64,000 nt of DNA from NCBI GenBank assembly GCA_024137785.1, contig JAHRHZ010000223.1, forward strand, positions 15,734,967 to 15,798,966. The letters run 5' to 3'. The position numbers were made by a program. Shown piece after piece: positions 45,801-51,800 of this stretch; positions within the stretch are counted from its first letter, which is position 1; each line of letters begins with the position of its first letter. This stretch comes from Ginglymostoma cirratum (taxonomy: Eukaryota).

Positions 45801-48800
45801 TCAAGCAATGTGGAGGAGTAAAACAGGGTTGAAAGCAGCTAGCTTGGGTTCTTCTTAAGTTCATGTTGAAATACTTCCCTTGCCTTAGCCCATTTTTATT
45901 ATGGGGTCAAATAACCAAGTATCCAGTCTGGAAGCAGTCAAATTGTTGACTGCAATTAATTACAGTATATGACCTCCCAAGTTGTGAGATTTTCAATGCG
46001 TCCTTCTTCAACTGTGGAGGCCCAGAGTAACCAGTTGCTACCTTTTTACATCAATTATGCTTTTAATACATTTTACAGAGAAAAAGTTTCACCTGATATT
46101 TTATTAAAACGCCTGAATATGAAAATAAATGTTATTCACTTGGTAGTGAGCCAGTTGGATGGCTTTCAAAGGAAGAGGGAAACTTACAATTGACAGCATA
46201 TCATGAAAAGACCTCAAAAGTGCTACATACAATAAGTGGCTTTTAATAAATAGTGGCCACAAAATTTGTCTCCATAGAGCTTTCCACGCCATGAGGAGCA
46301 GGGACAGAAGAACTAAATCACAGAGCTACAATCACTGTTACCTTTTTTTTCAGAATGGCAGTGTGGGTGTTCCAAATAAAGCGTGCGCAGATCATCATGT
46401 CAGTCAGCCTGTAACACCAAATTGATGCCCCATCAGTCATTATCCATCTCACTGCTCTCGTTAGGAGGCGCTTTTGAATGTGCAGAGCTGAACATGTGCA
46501 GAGATGCATGGAAGACCTCTGTTGTCAGCACTATTTTAAGGAATTGCCAAACAACCTGAAGCTGAGTTGCTTGTGACTATTTAATTGATGTTCCAGAGTT
46601 CCTGAAAATCCTGGGTTGTTGGAAAATCTGTGCACAGTTGATCATATCAGCTGTCAATGGTGATGTGAAGGAGTTCTGGACTTCTGAAAGATCCCCGAGT
46701 ACATTGCCACAACCCCTTTGTACTGGAAATATCCATGAGAAAAAAAACAATGGAGAGTTGAGAAGTTACTTGCAGCAAAAGGAGTGGGAAGCCTTACCCA
46801 ACCAGGGATTTCAGATAGCACTTCTTCCATCTGTACCTAAAGCAGGAAAAATGCACTTGGGAGCTGTGCTTCACAGAAATATGCCACCTCTTAGAGGTGA
46901 TCCTGCAGTCTCAGAGCAGGGAAAAGCCATTGTTGCGATGCCTATCAAGTGATCATAGCAATGAAGTTTTAATCCAGTGGATTCCCCCAAGATGAAGCGA
47001 ATGATACTGGAAACATTTTGCACTTTACTCTTCCTGTGTATAGGGTCTCTGACTTCATGGATTTTGCACTAAACTGAAAGCGGGAGAAATACCTGTACCG
47101 TGGTAGCAGTTATTAAGCTTCTAACCTCCCTCAGTCTGCTGGGGAATGCAGAGAATATTAACAGCTCTTGTTGCTCTGGTCTATGAACAGCACAAGTTTC
47201 ACAGTCAGCCATGGGGTATTCAATATCCTTGGTCATCCCAGACCACCATTACGTTGACCAAGCTTTGGCTCTGCATTTGGTAATTCCCAAAATGTCCCTG
47301 GTGAAACTTCTCCAGAAGGTCTTTGTGAAGTGAAGCTGGAATGACCATGCATTTGCCATATATTCATAAATCACCCATAACTCTAAAATGCTCTCGATTC
47401 TTAAAGTAAGTTTACGATCAACGAGTTGACCCTTTCATATGGCTAGCCTTTGACACAGTGATTTTCCTGGTCCCTCTTCTGTTCTTGTTATATTTGGTTG
47501 AGCTGACATTGATTTGCTGGTCACTTTGTTGTTGTGGACTGAGTATACAAAGCAATCTCGTGAACCAAGTCAATATCATACATAGAAAGGCTGCTGACTG
47601 TTGTTCTGGATCCCGTTCAAAAGAAACTAGCACAGGGTATGAATGACTATCTCCCCCCAAATAACAGATAACCCTGCAGTTGCCCCAGCAGGGATTTCCA
47701 GTCAACATGAGGGCTTTGCAAATTGGTACAAAACAAATAAATGGTCAATCCATCAAGGCAACCTCGAGGTAAGTTCTGGAGCAGGAATGGAAATGCACCT
47801 TCAAATGTTATTCTTTCTTAATAAAATAATGATGGTCAATCTGCACCTTTGCTAAATACTTAGCATTGTACCGAATGAAAAATTCCTATATTTGCAAGCT
47901 GACTTTATGATCAAAAATAGTCTTAAAAATCGCTCATCTACAGTTTAATCATAACGTTGTTTTGTGACACTATATTTAGATTGTCAAAAAGGATAACTTT
48001 CAATGACACTTCATTTCAACCAAAAAGCCATTTCTAAGCCCTTCACTCAACTCATGCCCCTTCTTGTATTTTGAATCTACTTTAGTTCCATTTGCCAGTA
48101 AATAACACAAGAGGTTTAGTCTTCACCTGCAACTCTTCTGAATGTTGACCAACAAGGGGACATCACACCCAATTCTGATCTCATTTTATGAAAAGTTTGT
48201 ACATGCACATCTCCAAGAAGGATCATCAGATAGTTATTGGGAAGAAAAACATCAGCTGTACTTGCTCAAGATGAATTGAGGTTAACTATAATGCCTCTTC
48301 GTACCTTCACTAAGGAAAGGACAAACACAATGCAGACTGGGGACAGAGACCAAAACCATCATGGTCTGCATTTCACCATGTTTTATTTTTACACTGAGGC
48401 ATCACACCAAAGAATGAACCATTTCATGAATTTTTGCAGTGATATTAAAGTACCAATTACTAGGGTATCTGAAGAGATCCCATAGTTGTTTTTTTCACCC
48501 TATACAACTTTTTATTTAAGAAACAGAAAGCCTTTGAGATTCATTTCATTGCAGAAACAGTGCAACGAGAAGAGGACATTAAAAGAGTGGTAACACCTAT
48601 TGCTATTATGGCTTTATTGAAACAGCTTAGCACCCATGGATATTCATGTTGAAAATATGCATGTGGTAGCAATTGTGAATGAAAATCTTTATAAATAGTT
48701 GTCTGGCTGCCTTTTTGATTCAGGAGGTTTAATTTAAAACTGCTGTGTTTAAGTGCTTGGCTTTAAATGACTTATTACCTGGAGCGTAGCTAAACGGACT

Positions 48801-51800
48801 CCTTCTAGTGGTTTGTCAGGATCCACCTTCACATCGCTCGTCTTGGTGAAACTATCTAAGTTTTTGATTCTATTACAGGCATCATATGCACCCTGTAATG
48901 ACAATAAGAAGCAAAGACTTACTTCAAGTGTGAGCAAACGGACATTTTCCTGTGGTTTGTCGGGATTTACTTTGATGATCCTTGCGTTTTTGAACTCTTG
49001 CAAATTTGGCAAATTTCTTGCAGCCTGGGCAGCTCCCTGTTTCCAGAAGATGTGACGAATTACAATTAAAAACAACCACCGGAAACATGCATGGTTTATT
49101 ATATCTTTATTTCCCCCACATTTTAAACTCTTCGCCCTCCCTTGCATTGCATTAACCTTTTTACCTACATAAATCTCCTTTCCAAGCACATCCTAAAAAA
49201 AAATCTAGATTACACAAGGGGTTAGGTTTCACTGCAGTATTTTGAACATTGAGAATAGAGTAATAAAAGTGGAGCACCCACACACTTCATTTTTCTACTT
49301 GCAGTCATTAATACTTTCAGAACAAAAGTGATTGAGAAGGCATTTTGTGCACTCTTTAAGAGAACATTGAGGGATCTGTAGAAAAATATGAAAAGAACAT
49401 GTTCCCTTTGAACAAGAAAAAAGAGATGACTGGACATTGTAGTTACTGCTGGTAACACTCAAACTTTTCATGTCCAAAACTAATTCAGCCAGTCAAATGA
49501 GCAGAAATCCTCCACTATTTGTTGACTGTAAAGATCACACTGGACAGGGTCTTGCGGTGTACAGGTAATGTCCCTACCTCTTGGTCAGAAACCTCTGGTT
49601 TGAGACTGAAGAAAGCACTTGCTGACCATCTATGGTGCACTTGTAATGAGGCCAAACTGACTGATTATCAGAAATGAAACAACGAACTGCAGATCTGAAA
49701 CAAAAGCACAAAATGCTGGAGAAACTCTGCAGGTCTGACAGCATCTGTGGAGACAAAAACAGAGTTCACATCGAGTCCAGTGAACAGTTCTGATCAAGAT
49801 TCACTGGACTTGAAATGCTGATTCTGTTTCTCTCTCCACAGATGCTGCCAGACCTGCCGAGTTTCTCCAGAACTTTCCGCTTTGGTTGATTATCAGCCTG
49901 TGAATCCTGCCAGTAGTCCTGATGGCAGGCACTAAGAGTGGGTGACTTTCCTAGTTAAATATCCTGCAGAAGGCAATGGGAAACTACTCCTGTACTTTTC
50001 CCATTACTACAGACTAATTGAATGAGATGTTTGTGGCCTAACCTTCGGAAATGAGGGCATCACGGAAAGAACCCACTTGGATTATGTCAATGCAGTCTTA
50101 ATGGAAAGCACATGGAAGGTGCTTTTAATTCAGCACAAAGCAGTCTCTCCATTCAAAAGGACAAGTGGATAGCTGTTTTGAGGAACAAAAAACTACTACA
50201 CTGCTGCAGTACAAGTGTGAAACACACTATCCGGGCAAAGCAAAAACGGTTTTCTGGGCCTAGTTGTGTTATGTATGGGAGGTTTTGATGTGGCACTTGA
50301 TAACTGAGATAGAGAAGGTTTCATTTTTGTCACATGAAAATCACCACGACAAGCATAACTCATTACAAAAACAACAAAACTGATCTAAATTTTCTCATAA
50401 ACTGCTTGTTGCTACGTGCTGGAATGCACAAATGCTCTTCCATAAGAGAGTAAAACAGTTGATGGAGTTTATTGATTGCTCAGTCAGTTCATGCAAGAGT
50501 CTCTCTCCCTCTTTCTCTTGCCGTTTTTGAGCAGGACAAATGACCCTGACCCTGACCCAGACCCAGTGCTAAATGACCACGTTGGAAGCAAAACTTTTTA
50601 GTTGTGAGCACTGACACCCTTGCAAGTCCAAAATTGATTAAATGAAAACAAAGGTAACAGCATGGCTAGAATAAGAGGCTGCCAACATTATGCAGCCTGA
50701 CTCGGTATGGGCACAAAACAGACTACAAAGGCCAAGGGGATCAGCAAGTCTGTCAGCACTCACCCACATTCTATGACCAGCTGTGAGGGATATATTTAAA
50801 TGTCTACTCCTCAGATTTGATTGTGGTTGGTTAGGTTGTGTTGACTTAACTTTTTGTTTTTCTTTCACCCACAGGATGGTATCAAACTGGTTGTGTAAAG
50901 AACAACAAACTTCAACGATAACCTAAATCCTTATTATGAAAACAATGATACAAGCAGCTATGTTTGTGTTGAACTTATGGCATAATGTTGATATATACGT
51001 TCTTAATATTGCATATGTGAATTCCTTATAATTCGTTCCAATCTTATGTAACATTGTAATCATGATTAAAGTTCTGCAAATATAACACACCAAAAGGAAG
51101 TGTCTGTTGTGATTATCTGCTAATTATTATTTATTTTCAACTGCTCTTCAATGGCTCTAAATTTCTTAAAGTAGCTGCTAATATTGATTAGATGGTAGGG
51201 TGTGGGGACGCGTTGGTGCAGCCATTTAAATGTTTCCCACACTTACTGGAGAGTTTATTGCCACCAATTGATATACAGTTCAAATTCACATGTAAAAGCT
51301 TTGTCATGCTCTACTTTTGAGGAAATAATGCAAAGTTAACTCCTGCCAAGTTTGACATGGATACTTTGTTTGAGTAGATTCACAATCACGCTTCCCTCGT
51401 CTGCGCATCACTGAGCCTGTAATGGTGCTTGCTGTATTAGTCCTATTGTCTCACCAACATTAACAAAAACCACTATAAGAGGAGACTGAAAAAACAAAAT
51501 TTCGATGTAGATCATGTGAATTTAGGGAACACAGACAACGTTTAATTTTCAATGATATTCATGTTTAAGCCATTACGTAAGTTTGTTCAACTTCATGGAA
51601 TCTCCTTTCGAGCATTTGATACAAGATAGACTGCTGCCTTGTCCATAAAATATATAAAGACTGCACTTTCATTAAACTTCTGGAGAGGAAGAAGTGTCAG
51701 CACTTTTTTCTATCCCTTCAGCTTTTGCAATGTCTTTTTTTGTCAGGCTCTGACAGCTACAACATGAACAATTTTCTTTGAAATTAATACTTGGCATGTG

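What the first reader, a model, noticed from the sequence alone, without database searches (positions are those of the whole stretch)
48779..49036. Tandem-duplicated MTHFSD exon 3: a probable mutually exclusive exon pair
Seen: two exons of exactly 114 nt, both phase 0/0, both with canonical AG/GT sites and stop-free, with 18/38 identical residues in register. Either one joins exon 2 to exon 4 in frame and supplies the same segment of the ligase-like domain. Inference: both copies have stayed intact despite about 50% divergence, which suggests long-term selection on two isoforms of a poorly understood protein. From memory (unverified), mammalian reference proteins differ here, with human carrying a B-like and mouse an A-like segment. 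If so, the switch may be known in mammals, and this locus would date it to at least the jawed-vertebrate ancestor.
Basis: partly seen in the sequence, partly recalled or inferred. Interest (0 to 1): 0.85.

Follow-up and report, generated by a model that had tools for sequence, protein, structure and literature searches.

The report
MTHFSD alternative exon pair, already annotated
Two duplicated 114-base exons of a shark MTHFSD gene sit only 30 bases apart, so a transcript should carry one or the other; this ancient vertebrate switch is real, but public gene annotations already record it.

Summary
On the minus strand, exon A (49036..48923) and exon B (48892..48779) are each 114 nt and phase 0/0. 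Both have AG/GT sites and they share 18/38 residues. The gene is MTHFSD.

That is too short for a vertebrate spliceosome to join A to B, so exclusion is most likely steric.

Both exon types occur across jawed vertebrates. In a segment tree all 60 B-type segments form one branch side (support 100/99) against 37 A-type plus amphioxus. RefSeq-style isoforms carry A or B at the same residues within single species of sharks, rays, gar, turtles and bats. UniProt lists a Xenopus laevis "Isoform 2" that is A-type. Two cancer papers list a human event "MTHFSD|102413|ME".

Both exons are conserved like the RRM domain and far above the linker. Third codon positions between A and B match at chance level, 9/38.

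So the pair is real, ancient and selected, but not new. No RNA data for this species could be examined. Several gene models, mostly teleost, contain both exons. The human/mouse claim stayed unchecked.

The parts
60146..60249 (-). MTHFSD exon 2 (constitutive upstream exon; its donor is AAG|gtaaaa at 60146/60145)
   Evidence: tblastn to Rhincodon typus isoforms at 97% identity over residues 10-44. It is 104 nt and ends in phase 0.
48923..49036 (-). Alternative exon A (114 nt, 38 aa, A-type with ...KVNPDKPQENVR...). It has a weaker polypyrimidine tract (0.60 pyrimidine, interrupted by ggaaa) and a strong donor, GAA|gtaagt.
   Evidence: 38/38 identical to the segment of Rhincodon typus isoform X4 (P0017) and 37/38 to Carcharodon X4.
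48893..48922 (-). 30-nt intron between A and B (gtaagt...cattacag). It is in frame and stop-free. I propose it acts as a steric lock that prevents A-to-B splicing.
   Evidence: length 30. The only yUnAy branch-point-like motifs within 70 nt upstream of exon B have their A at 48905 (17 nt downstream of the A donor) and at 48931 (inside exon A).
48779..48892 (-). Alternative exon B (114 nt, 38 aa, B-type with ...VKVDPDKPLEGVR...). It has a better polypyrimidine tract (0.75) and the donor CAG|gtaata.
   Evidence: 37/38 identical to the segment of Rhincodon typus isoform X1 (P0014).
37857..37970 (-). MTHFSD exon 4 (downstream acceptor ttttag|GCT; also 114 nt; not homologous to A or B)
   Evidence: 100% identical to P0014 residues 83-120. 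Its scores against A and B are at chance level; 323 and 398 of 500 shuffles reach them.
48965..48973 (-). Potential cryptic donor inside exon A (AAA|GTAAAT, G at 48970, phase 0). It would leave a 78-nt intron to the exon B acceptor.
   Evidence: The same K|VNPD position is where 5 teleost gene models join a 22-aa piece of A to B. No use in sharks was seen.

Best explanation
This is the alternative exon 3 pair of MTHFSD, a protein with a 5-formyltetrahydrofolate cyclo-ligase-like domain followed by an RRM. An ancient tandem exon duplication produced two versions of one helix-strand-loop-helix unit of the ligase-like domain. The donor of exon 2 chooses between two acceptors 144 nt apart. If it takes A's acceptor, A's donor cannot pair with B's acceptor. 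Only 30 nt lie between them, and any branch point for B lies at most 17 nt from that donor or inside exon A. A is therefore joined to exon 4, 10.9 kb downstream. If exon 2 takes B's acceptor, A leaves in the lariat. A mature mRNA thus carries A or B. What is shown: the anatomy, the homology, the gene identity, conservation of both types, and annotated A-only and B-only isoforms in relatives. What is inferred: the steric lock, the splice-choice logic, and that the two versions differ in what the domain binds. The classes differ at two positions that are invariant within each class: N68/Q73 in A and D68/L73 in B.
For: The gene is confirmed as follows. tblastn of whale-shark isoforms maps 7-8 exons at 91-100% identity. 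Pfam PF01812 matches at E 1e-26 and 7e-24. Foldseek matches MTHFS structures 2jcb, 1ydm, 1wkc, 1sou and 3hy6, and the RRM structure 2e5j. One-or-the-other use is seen in 29 of 30 chondrichthyan protein clusters: 21 B, 8 A and 1 with both. Carcharodon X4 (A) and X3 (B) are both 414 aa, and Amblyraja X2 (A) and X1 (B) are both 424 aa. Of 131 named proteins, 61 are single B and 28 single A. Of 98 named mammal proteins, 76 are B and 22 are A. The origin is ancient and single: all 60 B-type segments lie on one side of a branch (100/99) against 37 A-type plus 2 amphioxus. Selection acts on both: mean pairwise identity is 0.64 for A and 0.67 for B, against 0.65 for the RRM and 0.16-0.23 for the linker. 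A and B match at 24/38, 27/38 and 9/38 of first, second and third codon positions. The steric reading rests on the 30-nt intron. Read-through gene models in other species imply spacers of 27, 30, 36, 36, 63 and 63 nt. Hatje et al. use a donor-to-branch-point distance under 50 bp as the criterion and find it in 57 of 629 human clusters (PMC5740500, passages). The other classical mechanisms do not apply. Both exons are divisible by 3, so there is no frameshift or NMD, and all donors are U2-type GT.
Against: No transcript data for this species were available. 14 of 131 named models hold A and B contiguously: Pristis pectinata, gar, two mammals and 10 teleosts, including models labelled isoform X1 or X2. 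Another 10 hold a partial A plus B. If these reflect real mRNAs, exclusion is leaky or lost in teleosts. Spacer lengths from read-through models are biased towards short, in-frame, stop-free introns. The branch point is predicted from a motif, not mapped. The only A-type isoform seen for the closest relative (Rhincodon X4) also lacks exon 4. The functional difference between A and B is untested, and the A-isoform structure model was too poor to compare (pLDDT 46).
Confidence: 0.8

Rival explanations
1. Both exons are spliced into the same mRNA, constitutively or often, giving a protein with a duplicated 38-residue unit.
For: 14 of 131 named gene models contain A directly followed by B, including Pristis pectinata and 10 teleosts. 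6 more read through the spacer. Double inclusion keeps the reading frame.
Against: A 30-nt intron is well below what vertebrate spliceosomes remove. 29 of 30 chondrichthyan clusters carry exactly one exon. Several both-exon models are flagged LOW QUALITY, 'hypothetical' or 'partial'. The unit is one strand plus helices of a compact fold.
Confidence: 0.06
2. The exons are mutually exclusive, but the short spacing is incidental. Choice and exclusion are instead set by competing RNA structures or tissue-specific splicing factors.
For: Regulated choice between A and B must involve factors beyond the steric block. The two acceptors differ in polypyrimidine quality and the two donors differ in strength. 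Hatje et al. attribute only 9% of human clusters to proximity.
Against: With 30 nt between donor and acceptor, no further mechanism is needed to stop A-B joining. Short spacers recur in frogs, a skink, a finch and a pufferfish. I did not search for competing structures, because no other genome's DNA was available to test covariation.
Confidence: 0.1
3. One of the two exons is an unused relic that merely looks intact.
For: B dominates annotation: 61 single-B against 28 single-A rows among 131 proteins, and 76 against 22 among 98 in mammals.
Against: Across sharks to turtles, A has 13 invariant residues of 38 and B has 12 of 38. Mean identity is 0.64 and 0.67, against 0.16-0.23 for the unconstrained linker. 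A-only isoforms are annotated from rays to bats.
Confidence: 0.03

Closest known systems
MTHFSD exon 3 alternatives as already annotated in other vertebrates (RefSeq X-isoforms; UniProt Xenopus laevis 'Isoform 2'; TCGA SpliceSeq human event MTHFSD|102413|ME)
   Same: Same gene, same residues (45-82 in sharks) and same A and B sequence classes. Whale-shark X4 and X1 match the window's A and B at 38/38 and 37/38. A human mutually exclusive event in this gene is listed in PMC7443856 and PMC8966091 (passages).
   Different: Nothing of substance: this window is one more species. The papers give only an event id, so I could not confirm that the human event concerns this exon pair. I found no text describing the pair, its age or its 30-nt intron. 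Supplementary tables were closed.
Steric-hindrance mutually exclusive exons, such as alpha-tropomyosin exons 2/3 (recalled, not from a call), and the proximity class of Hatje et al. 2017 (PMC5740500)
   Same: The donor of the upstream alternative exon lies too close to the branch point or acceptor of the downstream one, so the two cannot be joined. Here the whole intron is 30 nt, and the Hatje criterion is under 50 bp.
   Different: The branch point is not mapped here. In this case both exons are divisible by 3, so the steric block is the only barrier to double inclusion and there is no NMD backstop.
OGDH exons 4a/4b (PMC7969005)
   Same: [quoted passage not shown]
   Different: In OGDH the two isoforms have a known functional difference (Ca2+ sensitivity). 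For MTHFSD no functional difference is known.

Membership tests
Mutually exclusive exon pair from tandem exon duplication | Adjacent exons of equal length and equal phase | tested here: met
   Both are 114 nt and phase 0/0, and they are 30 nt apart.
Mutually exclusive exon pair from tandem exon duplication | The exons are homologous to each other | tested here: met
   18/38 identical with no gap, E 3e-12. 0 of 500 shuffles reach the score.
Mutually exclusive exon pair from tandem exon duplication | Each exon has its own functional splice sites | tested here: met
   Canonical AG and GT at both exons. This is judged from sequence only; site strength was assessed by eye and not scored with a model.
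Mutually exclusive exon pair from tandem exon duplication | Mature transcripts contain exactly one of the two | tested here: inconclusive
   Support is indirect. 29 of 30 chondrichthyan protein clusters carry one exon, and 89 of 131 named proteins are single A or single B, but 32 carry both (whole or in part) and 10 were not classified by that script. No RNA data for this species.
Steric-hindrance class of mutually exclusive exons | The donor of the upstream exon lies less than about 50 nt from the branch point of the downstream exon | tested here: met
   The intron is 30 nt. The branch-point-like motifs lie 17 nt downstream of the donor or inside exon A. The branch point has not been mapped experimentally.
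U2/U12 splice-site incompatibility class | One intron of the cluster is U12-type | tested here: not met
   The donors are gtaaaa, gtaagt, gtaata and gtgggt. None matches the U12-type donor consensus as I recall it.
Frame/NMD-enforced class | Exon length is not divisible by 3, so double inclusion or double skipping shifts the frame | tested here: not met
   114 = 3 x 38 for both exons.
MTHFSD orthologue | N-terminal 5-FTHF cyclo-ligase-like domain plus a C-terminal RRM, with the exon order matching relatives | tested here: met
   tblastn of Rhincodon isoforms maps the window's exons at 91-100% identity. The shark isoforms match PF01812, the RRM structure 2e5j by sequence and MTHFS folds by Foldseek.

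The most novel reading that the evidence does not exclude
The exon pair is a two-state switch for one loop of the ligase-like domain. A carries N68 and Q73, B carries D68 and L73, and each is invariant within its class. The same two positions co-vary across unnamed representatives of the family: N..Q in 76 and D..L in 15 of 110 segments, with the mixed states N..L in 6 and D..Q in 2, and 11 in other states. Amphioxus keeps both states by another route. Its protein has two tandem domains that are 241/252 identical, and 7 of the 11 differences fall in this 38-residue segment, including D/N and L/Q at exactly these positions. If so, chordates have needed two ligand or partner specificities of MTHFSD since before vertebrates, and vertebrates fixed the choice with a 30-nt intron lock.
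Probability: 0.3. Interest if true: 0.55.

Novelty: already known. Interest (0 to 1): 0.3.

Why it matters
As a catalogue entry it adds little. Close relatives of this shark already have A and B isoforms annotated, and a human mutually exclusive event in MTHFSD is listed in a splicing database that cancer papers cite.

Three things may still be useful. First, MTHFSD is barely studied: 134 papers in the library mention it and only one has it in the title. Yet it holds a switch conserved across jawed vertebrates, with two class-specific invariant residues. Those residues give a concrete handle for asking what the ligase-like domain binds. Second, the pair is a clean case where a 30-nt intron appears to be the only barrier to double inclusion, because frame and U12 mechanisms are excluded. 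Third, teleost models with both exons and elopomorph models with two B-like copies suggest natural experiments on how such a lock is lost or reset.

Tried and rejected
I then used the uninterrupted window stretch 48779-49036, translated as it stands, which found both classes.
2. Mapping the segment onto solved MTHFS structures by sequence failed. phmmer and two profiles (A1, and A3 built from RRM-less isoforms) hit only RRMs, ribosomal eL15 at chance level, and 1wkc at E 1.4 over a different stretch. No ligand-contact assignment is therefore made.
3. The A-isoform structure model was poor (pLDDT 46) and the B model moderate (pLDDT 65). No A-versus-B structural comparison is offered. I take only B's secondary structure for the segment (helices 43-55 and 57-61, strand 64-67, loop, helix 74-82) and the fold match.
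4. A third exon copy in the 11-kb flanking introns: none found.
5. Exon 4, also 114 nt, as a third homologue: rejected, because its scores are at chance level.
6. U2/U12 incompatibility and frame/NMD as the enforcing mechanism: rejected from the sequence.
8. Exon 1 was not found upstream of exon 2 within the window.
9. A first quick tree was distorted by a mis-cut Tetraodon segment. I rebuilt it without that row.
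Full report
OBSERVATION. The region was read on the minus strand. It holds exon A (49036..48923) and exon B (48892..48779). Each is 114 nt and stop-free in frame, with an AG before it and a GT after it. Exon 2 ends in phase 0 at 60146 and exon 4 starts in phase 0 at 37970, so either exon fits between them. The peptides share 18 of 38 residues without a gap (BLASTP E 3e-12). 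None of 500 shuffles reaches the alignment score of 88; the highest shuffle scored 37. Across the whole window, exon B's only other tblastn match below E 0.06 is exon A (E 5.9e-8), so there is no third copy.

GENE IDENTITY. Two whale-shark (Rhincodon typus) MTHFSD isoforms were returned by the homology search. They map onto the window exon by exon at 91-100% identity: exon 2, A or B, exon 4 (37970..37857), then approximately 29818..29723, 27665..27546, 7854..7732 and 6134..5571. The window thus comes from a close relative of the whale shark. Nothing in it was taken for human. Shark isoforms match Pfam PF01812 (5-formyltetrahydrofolate cyclo-ligase family) over residues 13-210. Their C-terminus matches the solved RRM of MTHFSD, 2e5j. 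Searches used single exons or the uninterrupted stretch 48779-49036, and whole-protein work used database isoforms of relatives. The N run at 26250-26259 was left alone.

DISTRIBUTION. I searched with the uninterrupted 86-residue reading of the finding's coordinates. This gave 48 proteins with E of 1 or less among 198 candidates. I left out 8 unnamed proteins. Of the 40 named ones, 25 carry only a B-like segment, 6 only an A-like segment, and 9 carry both. A second search used the N-terminal 160 residues of the sawfish model, which holds both exons. It found 1826 proteins, of which the best 120 were listed. I pooled the two searches, left out 12 unnamed rows, and classified 131 named proteins by the stretch between the exon 2 and exon 4 peptides:
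- 61 single B
- 28 single A
- 14 A directly followed by B
- 2 with two B-like copies
- 6 with A, a read-through spacer and B
- 10 with a partial A plus B
- 10 that the script could not place. By these are 1 with both exons, 1 A and 7 B, all lacking a locatable exon 4, plus the two-domain amphioxus protein.

Isoforms of one species carry A or B at the same residues:
- Rhincodon X4 and X1
- Carcharodon X4 and X3 (both 414 aa)
- Cetorhinus X4 and X1
- Hemitrygon X2 and X4
- Amblyraja X2 and X1 (both 424 aa)
- Lepisosteus X3 and X1
- Chelonoidis X2 and X4
- Pangshura 2 and 1
- Xenopus laevis, where UniProt's 'Isoform 2' is A-type

Among chondrichthyans, 29 of 30 protein clusters carry exactly one exon (21 B, 8 A). 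Only the Pristis model has both.

A third search used a bat model. It found 2033 proteins and listed the best 120. I left out 2 unnamed rows and classified the 98 newly returned named proteins, all mammalian: 76 are B-type and 22 A-type. Same-species pairs occur in Pteropus alecto (X1 B and X2 A, both 392 aa), P. medius, Moschus, Hippopotamus and Myotis myotis. A and B coexist within single mammal species.

AGE AND SELECTION. I built a maximum-likelihood tree of 99 segments of 38 columns (97 distinct). All 60 B-type segments lie on one side of a branch, with support 100/99, against 37 A-type segments and the 2 amphioxus segments. The ultrafast bootstrap had not fully settled, and the class labels use two of the 38 columns. 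Both classes include sharks, rays, ray-finned fishes, amphibians, reptiles and mammals. The duplication therefore predates the split of cartilaginous and bony vertebrates.

The amphioxus segments match the window's A at 22/38 and 17/38, and its B at 15/38 and 14/38. Among unnamed 50%-identity representatives of the family, the A-like state dominates. B is probably the derived copy.

Within 22 A-type and 28 B-type full-length isoforms, mean pairwise identity of the alternative exon is 0.64 and 0.67. This is close to the RRM (0.65 and 0.64). It is below the flanking exons (0.83-0.86) and far above the linker (0.23 and 0.16). A has 13 invariant residues and B has 12. At the DNA level the window's A and B match at 24/38 first, 27/38 second and 9/38 third codon positions. 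Silent sites are thus saturated while coding sites are held. Both copies are under purifying selection, and neither is a relic.

MECHANISM. Three textbook ways of enforcing exclusion can be read from the sequence. Frame/NMD does not apply, because both exons are divisible by 3. U2/U12 incompatibility does not apply, because all donors are U2-type GT. Steric hindrance does apply. The donor of A and the acceptor of B are 30 nt apart. The only branch-point-like motifs within 70 nt upstream of B have their A 17 nt downstream of A's donor (48905) or inside exon A (48931). Hatje et al. (PMC5740500, passages read) use a donor-to-branch-point distance under 50 bp as the criterion and report it for 57 of 629 human clusters.

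Gene models that read through the spacer imply spacers of 27 nt (Discoglossus), 30 nt (Gastrophryne), 36 nt (Lerista, Mantella) and 63 nt (Tetraodon, Chloebia) (mis-scored Tetraodon). These are short everywhere. The sample is biased, though, because only in-frame, stop-free spacers can be read through.

I infer the following working. Exon 2's donor chooses between two acceptors 144 nt apart. A's acceptor has the weaker pyrimidine tract and B's the better one. A has the stronger donor (GAA|gtaagt) and B the weaker (CAG|gtaata). Once A is chosen, it can only be joined to exon 4. Once B is chosen, A is removed in the lariat. The choice itself must be regulated by factors that I could not address.

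WHAT IS SWAPPED. The B-isoform model is of moderate quality (pLDDT 65 overall, 72-89 over residues 51-90). It places residues 45-82 as helices 43-55 and 57-61, strand 64-67, a loop at 68-73 and helix 74-82. The first strand of exon 4 follows. The model matches 5-formyl-THF cyclo-ligase structures (2jcb, 1ydm, 1wkc, 1sou, 3hy6; TM 0.50-0.62 normalised to the target) and RRMs. The A model was too poor to use.

The two classes differ at two positions that are invariant in each: N68 and Q73 in A, D68 and L73 in B. These lie at the end of the strand and at the end of the following loop. By general knowledge of alpha/beta folds, that is where ligands usually bind. This is inference; I could not map the segment onto ligand-bound MTHFS by sequence.

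The profile search of 1.84 billion representatives listed the best 150. Of these, 143 were new ids. I skipped 3 as mammal-like and found no segment in 33. The remaining 107 gave 110 segments: 76 N..Q, 15 D..L, 6 N..L, 2 D..Q and 11 other. The association is strong (Fisher odds ratio 95, P 3e-11), but it is not corrected for relatedness, and the taxa are unknown because the library has no names.

COUNTER-EVIDENCE. 14 named models join A directly to B: Pristis, gar, two mammals and 10 teleosts, some labelled isoform X1 or X2 and standing for clusters of 25-33 sequences. Ten further models hold a partial A plus B. Five of these are teleost models that join the first 22 residues of A to B at K|VNPD, where the window has AAA|GTAAAT. 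If such transcripts exist, exclusion is leaky or lost in some lineages. I could not see the underlying evidence or those genomes. The only A-type isoform seen for the nearest relative (Rhincodon X4) also lacks exon 4. Full-length A isoforms exist in Carcharodon, Scyliorhinus and several rays.

WHAT IS KNOWN. Five literature searches were run. 'MTHFSD' with 'mutually exclusive' gave 11 papers, with 'exon duplication' 0, with 'isoform' and 'exon' 28, and with 'MXE' 3. 'MTHFSD' alone gave 134. I found no text describing this exon pair. In passages, two cancer papers list 'MTHFSD-102413-ME' or 'MTHFSD|102413|ME', a mutually exclusive event in human tumours (PMC7443856, PMC8966091). A third lists an exon-skip event (PMC8152425). 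A reef-fish study names MTHFSD among genes both differentially spliced and differentially expressed between 2 am and 6 am (PMC12215730). Hatje et al. do not name MTHFSD in their main text. Their lists and the SpliceSeq coordinates are in supplements or databases that I could not open. Together with the RefSeq-style and UniProt isoforms above, the switch is already on record. What seems not to be in print is its age, the 30-nt lock and the two class-specific residues.

VERDICT. This is a real, ancient, selected, very probably mutually exclusive exon pair, and it is already annotated. Interest is modest.

NOT CHECKED. Transcripts of this species. DNA of other vertebrates, and so intron lengths, dN/dS and RNA-structure covariation. 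Cyclostomes. The human and mouse reference proteins. Supplementary tables. The closed collections, viral and metagenome contigs, do not bear on this question.

Noticed in passing
window 37857-37970 (-): Exon 4 is also exactly 114 nt and phase 0/0. It is missing from 8 chondrichthyan isoform clusters (P0017, P0019, P0020, P0026, P0033, P0034, P0037, P0041), so it looks like a cassette exon. It is not homologous to A or B; its scores are at chance level.
   Followed up: partly
P0051 (Branchiostoma floridae MTHFSD-like isoform X2), residues 54-305 and 327-578: This amphioxus model has two tandem ligase-like domains that are 241/252 identical. 7 of the 11 differences fall in the 38 residues that match the vertebrate alternative exon (hypergeometric P 2e-4). 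They include D/N and L/Q at the two positions that separate vertebrate B from A. It could be real paralogy held apart by selection, or an assembly or haplotype artefact.
   Followed up: partly
P0063 (Gymnothorax javanicus) and P0064 (Albula glossodonta): In these two elopomorph fishes both tandem copies are B-like, and the upstream copy has G instead of D in the VKV(D/G)PDKPLEG motif. This suggests that A was overwritten by B (gene conversion or re-duplication) in their common ancestor.
   Followed up: no
window 48965-48973 (-); P0065, P0068, P0069, P0074, P0076: Five teleost models join the first 22 residues of A to the whole of B, at K|VNPD. The window has a plausible donor there (AAA|GTAAAT), which would leave a 78-nt intron. 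No shark isoform of this kind was seen.
   Followed up: partly
unnamed representatives P0246-P0388: Across the family, the residues at the positions equivalent to 68 and 73 co-vary. Of 110 segments, 76 are N..Q and 15 are D..L, against 6 N..L and 2 D..Q. The taxa are unknown. One representative (P0246, 1810 aa) matches the profile in 7 stretches; I did not examine it further.
   Followed up: partly
window 26250-26259: This is a run of 10 N inside the intron between exons 6 and 7. It was left as it is.
   Followed up: no
window 60250-64000 (-): The first coding exon of MTHFSD (about 9 residues in whale-shark isoforms) was not found upstream of exon 2 within the window. It probably lies beyond 64000.
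   Followed up: partly
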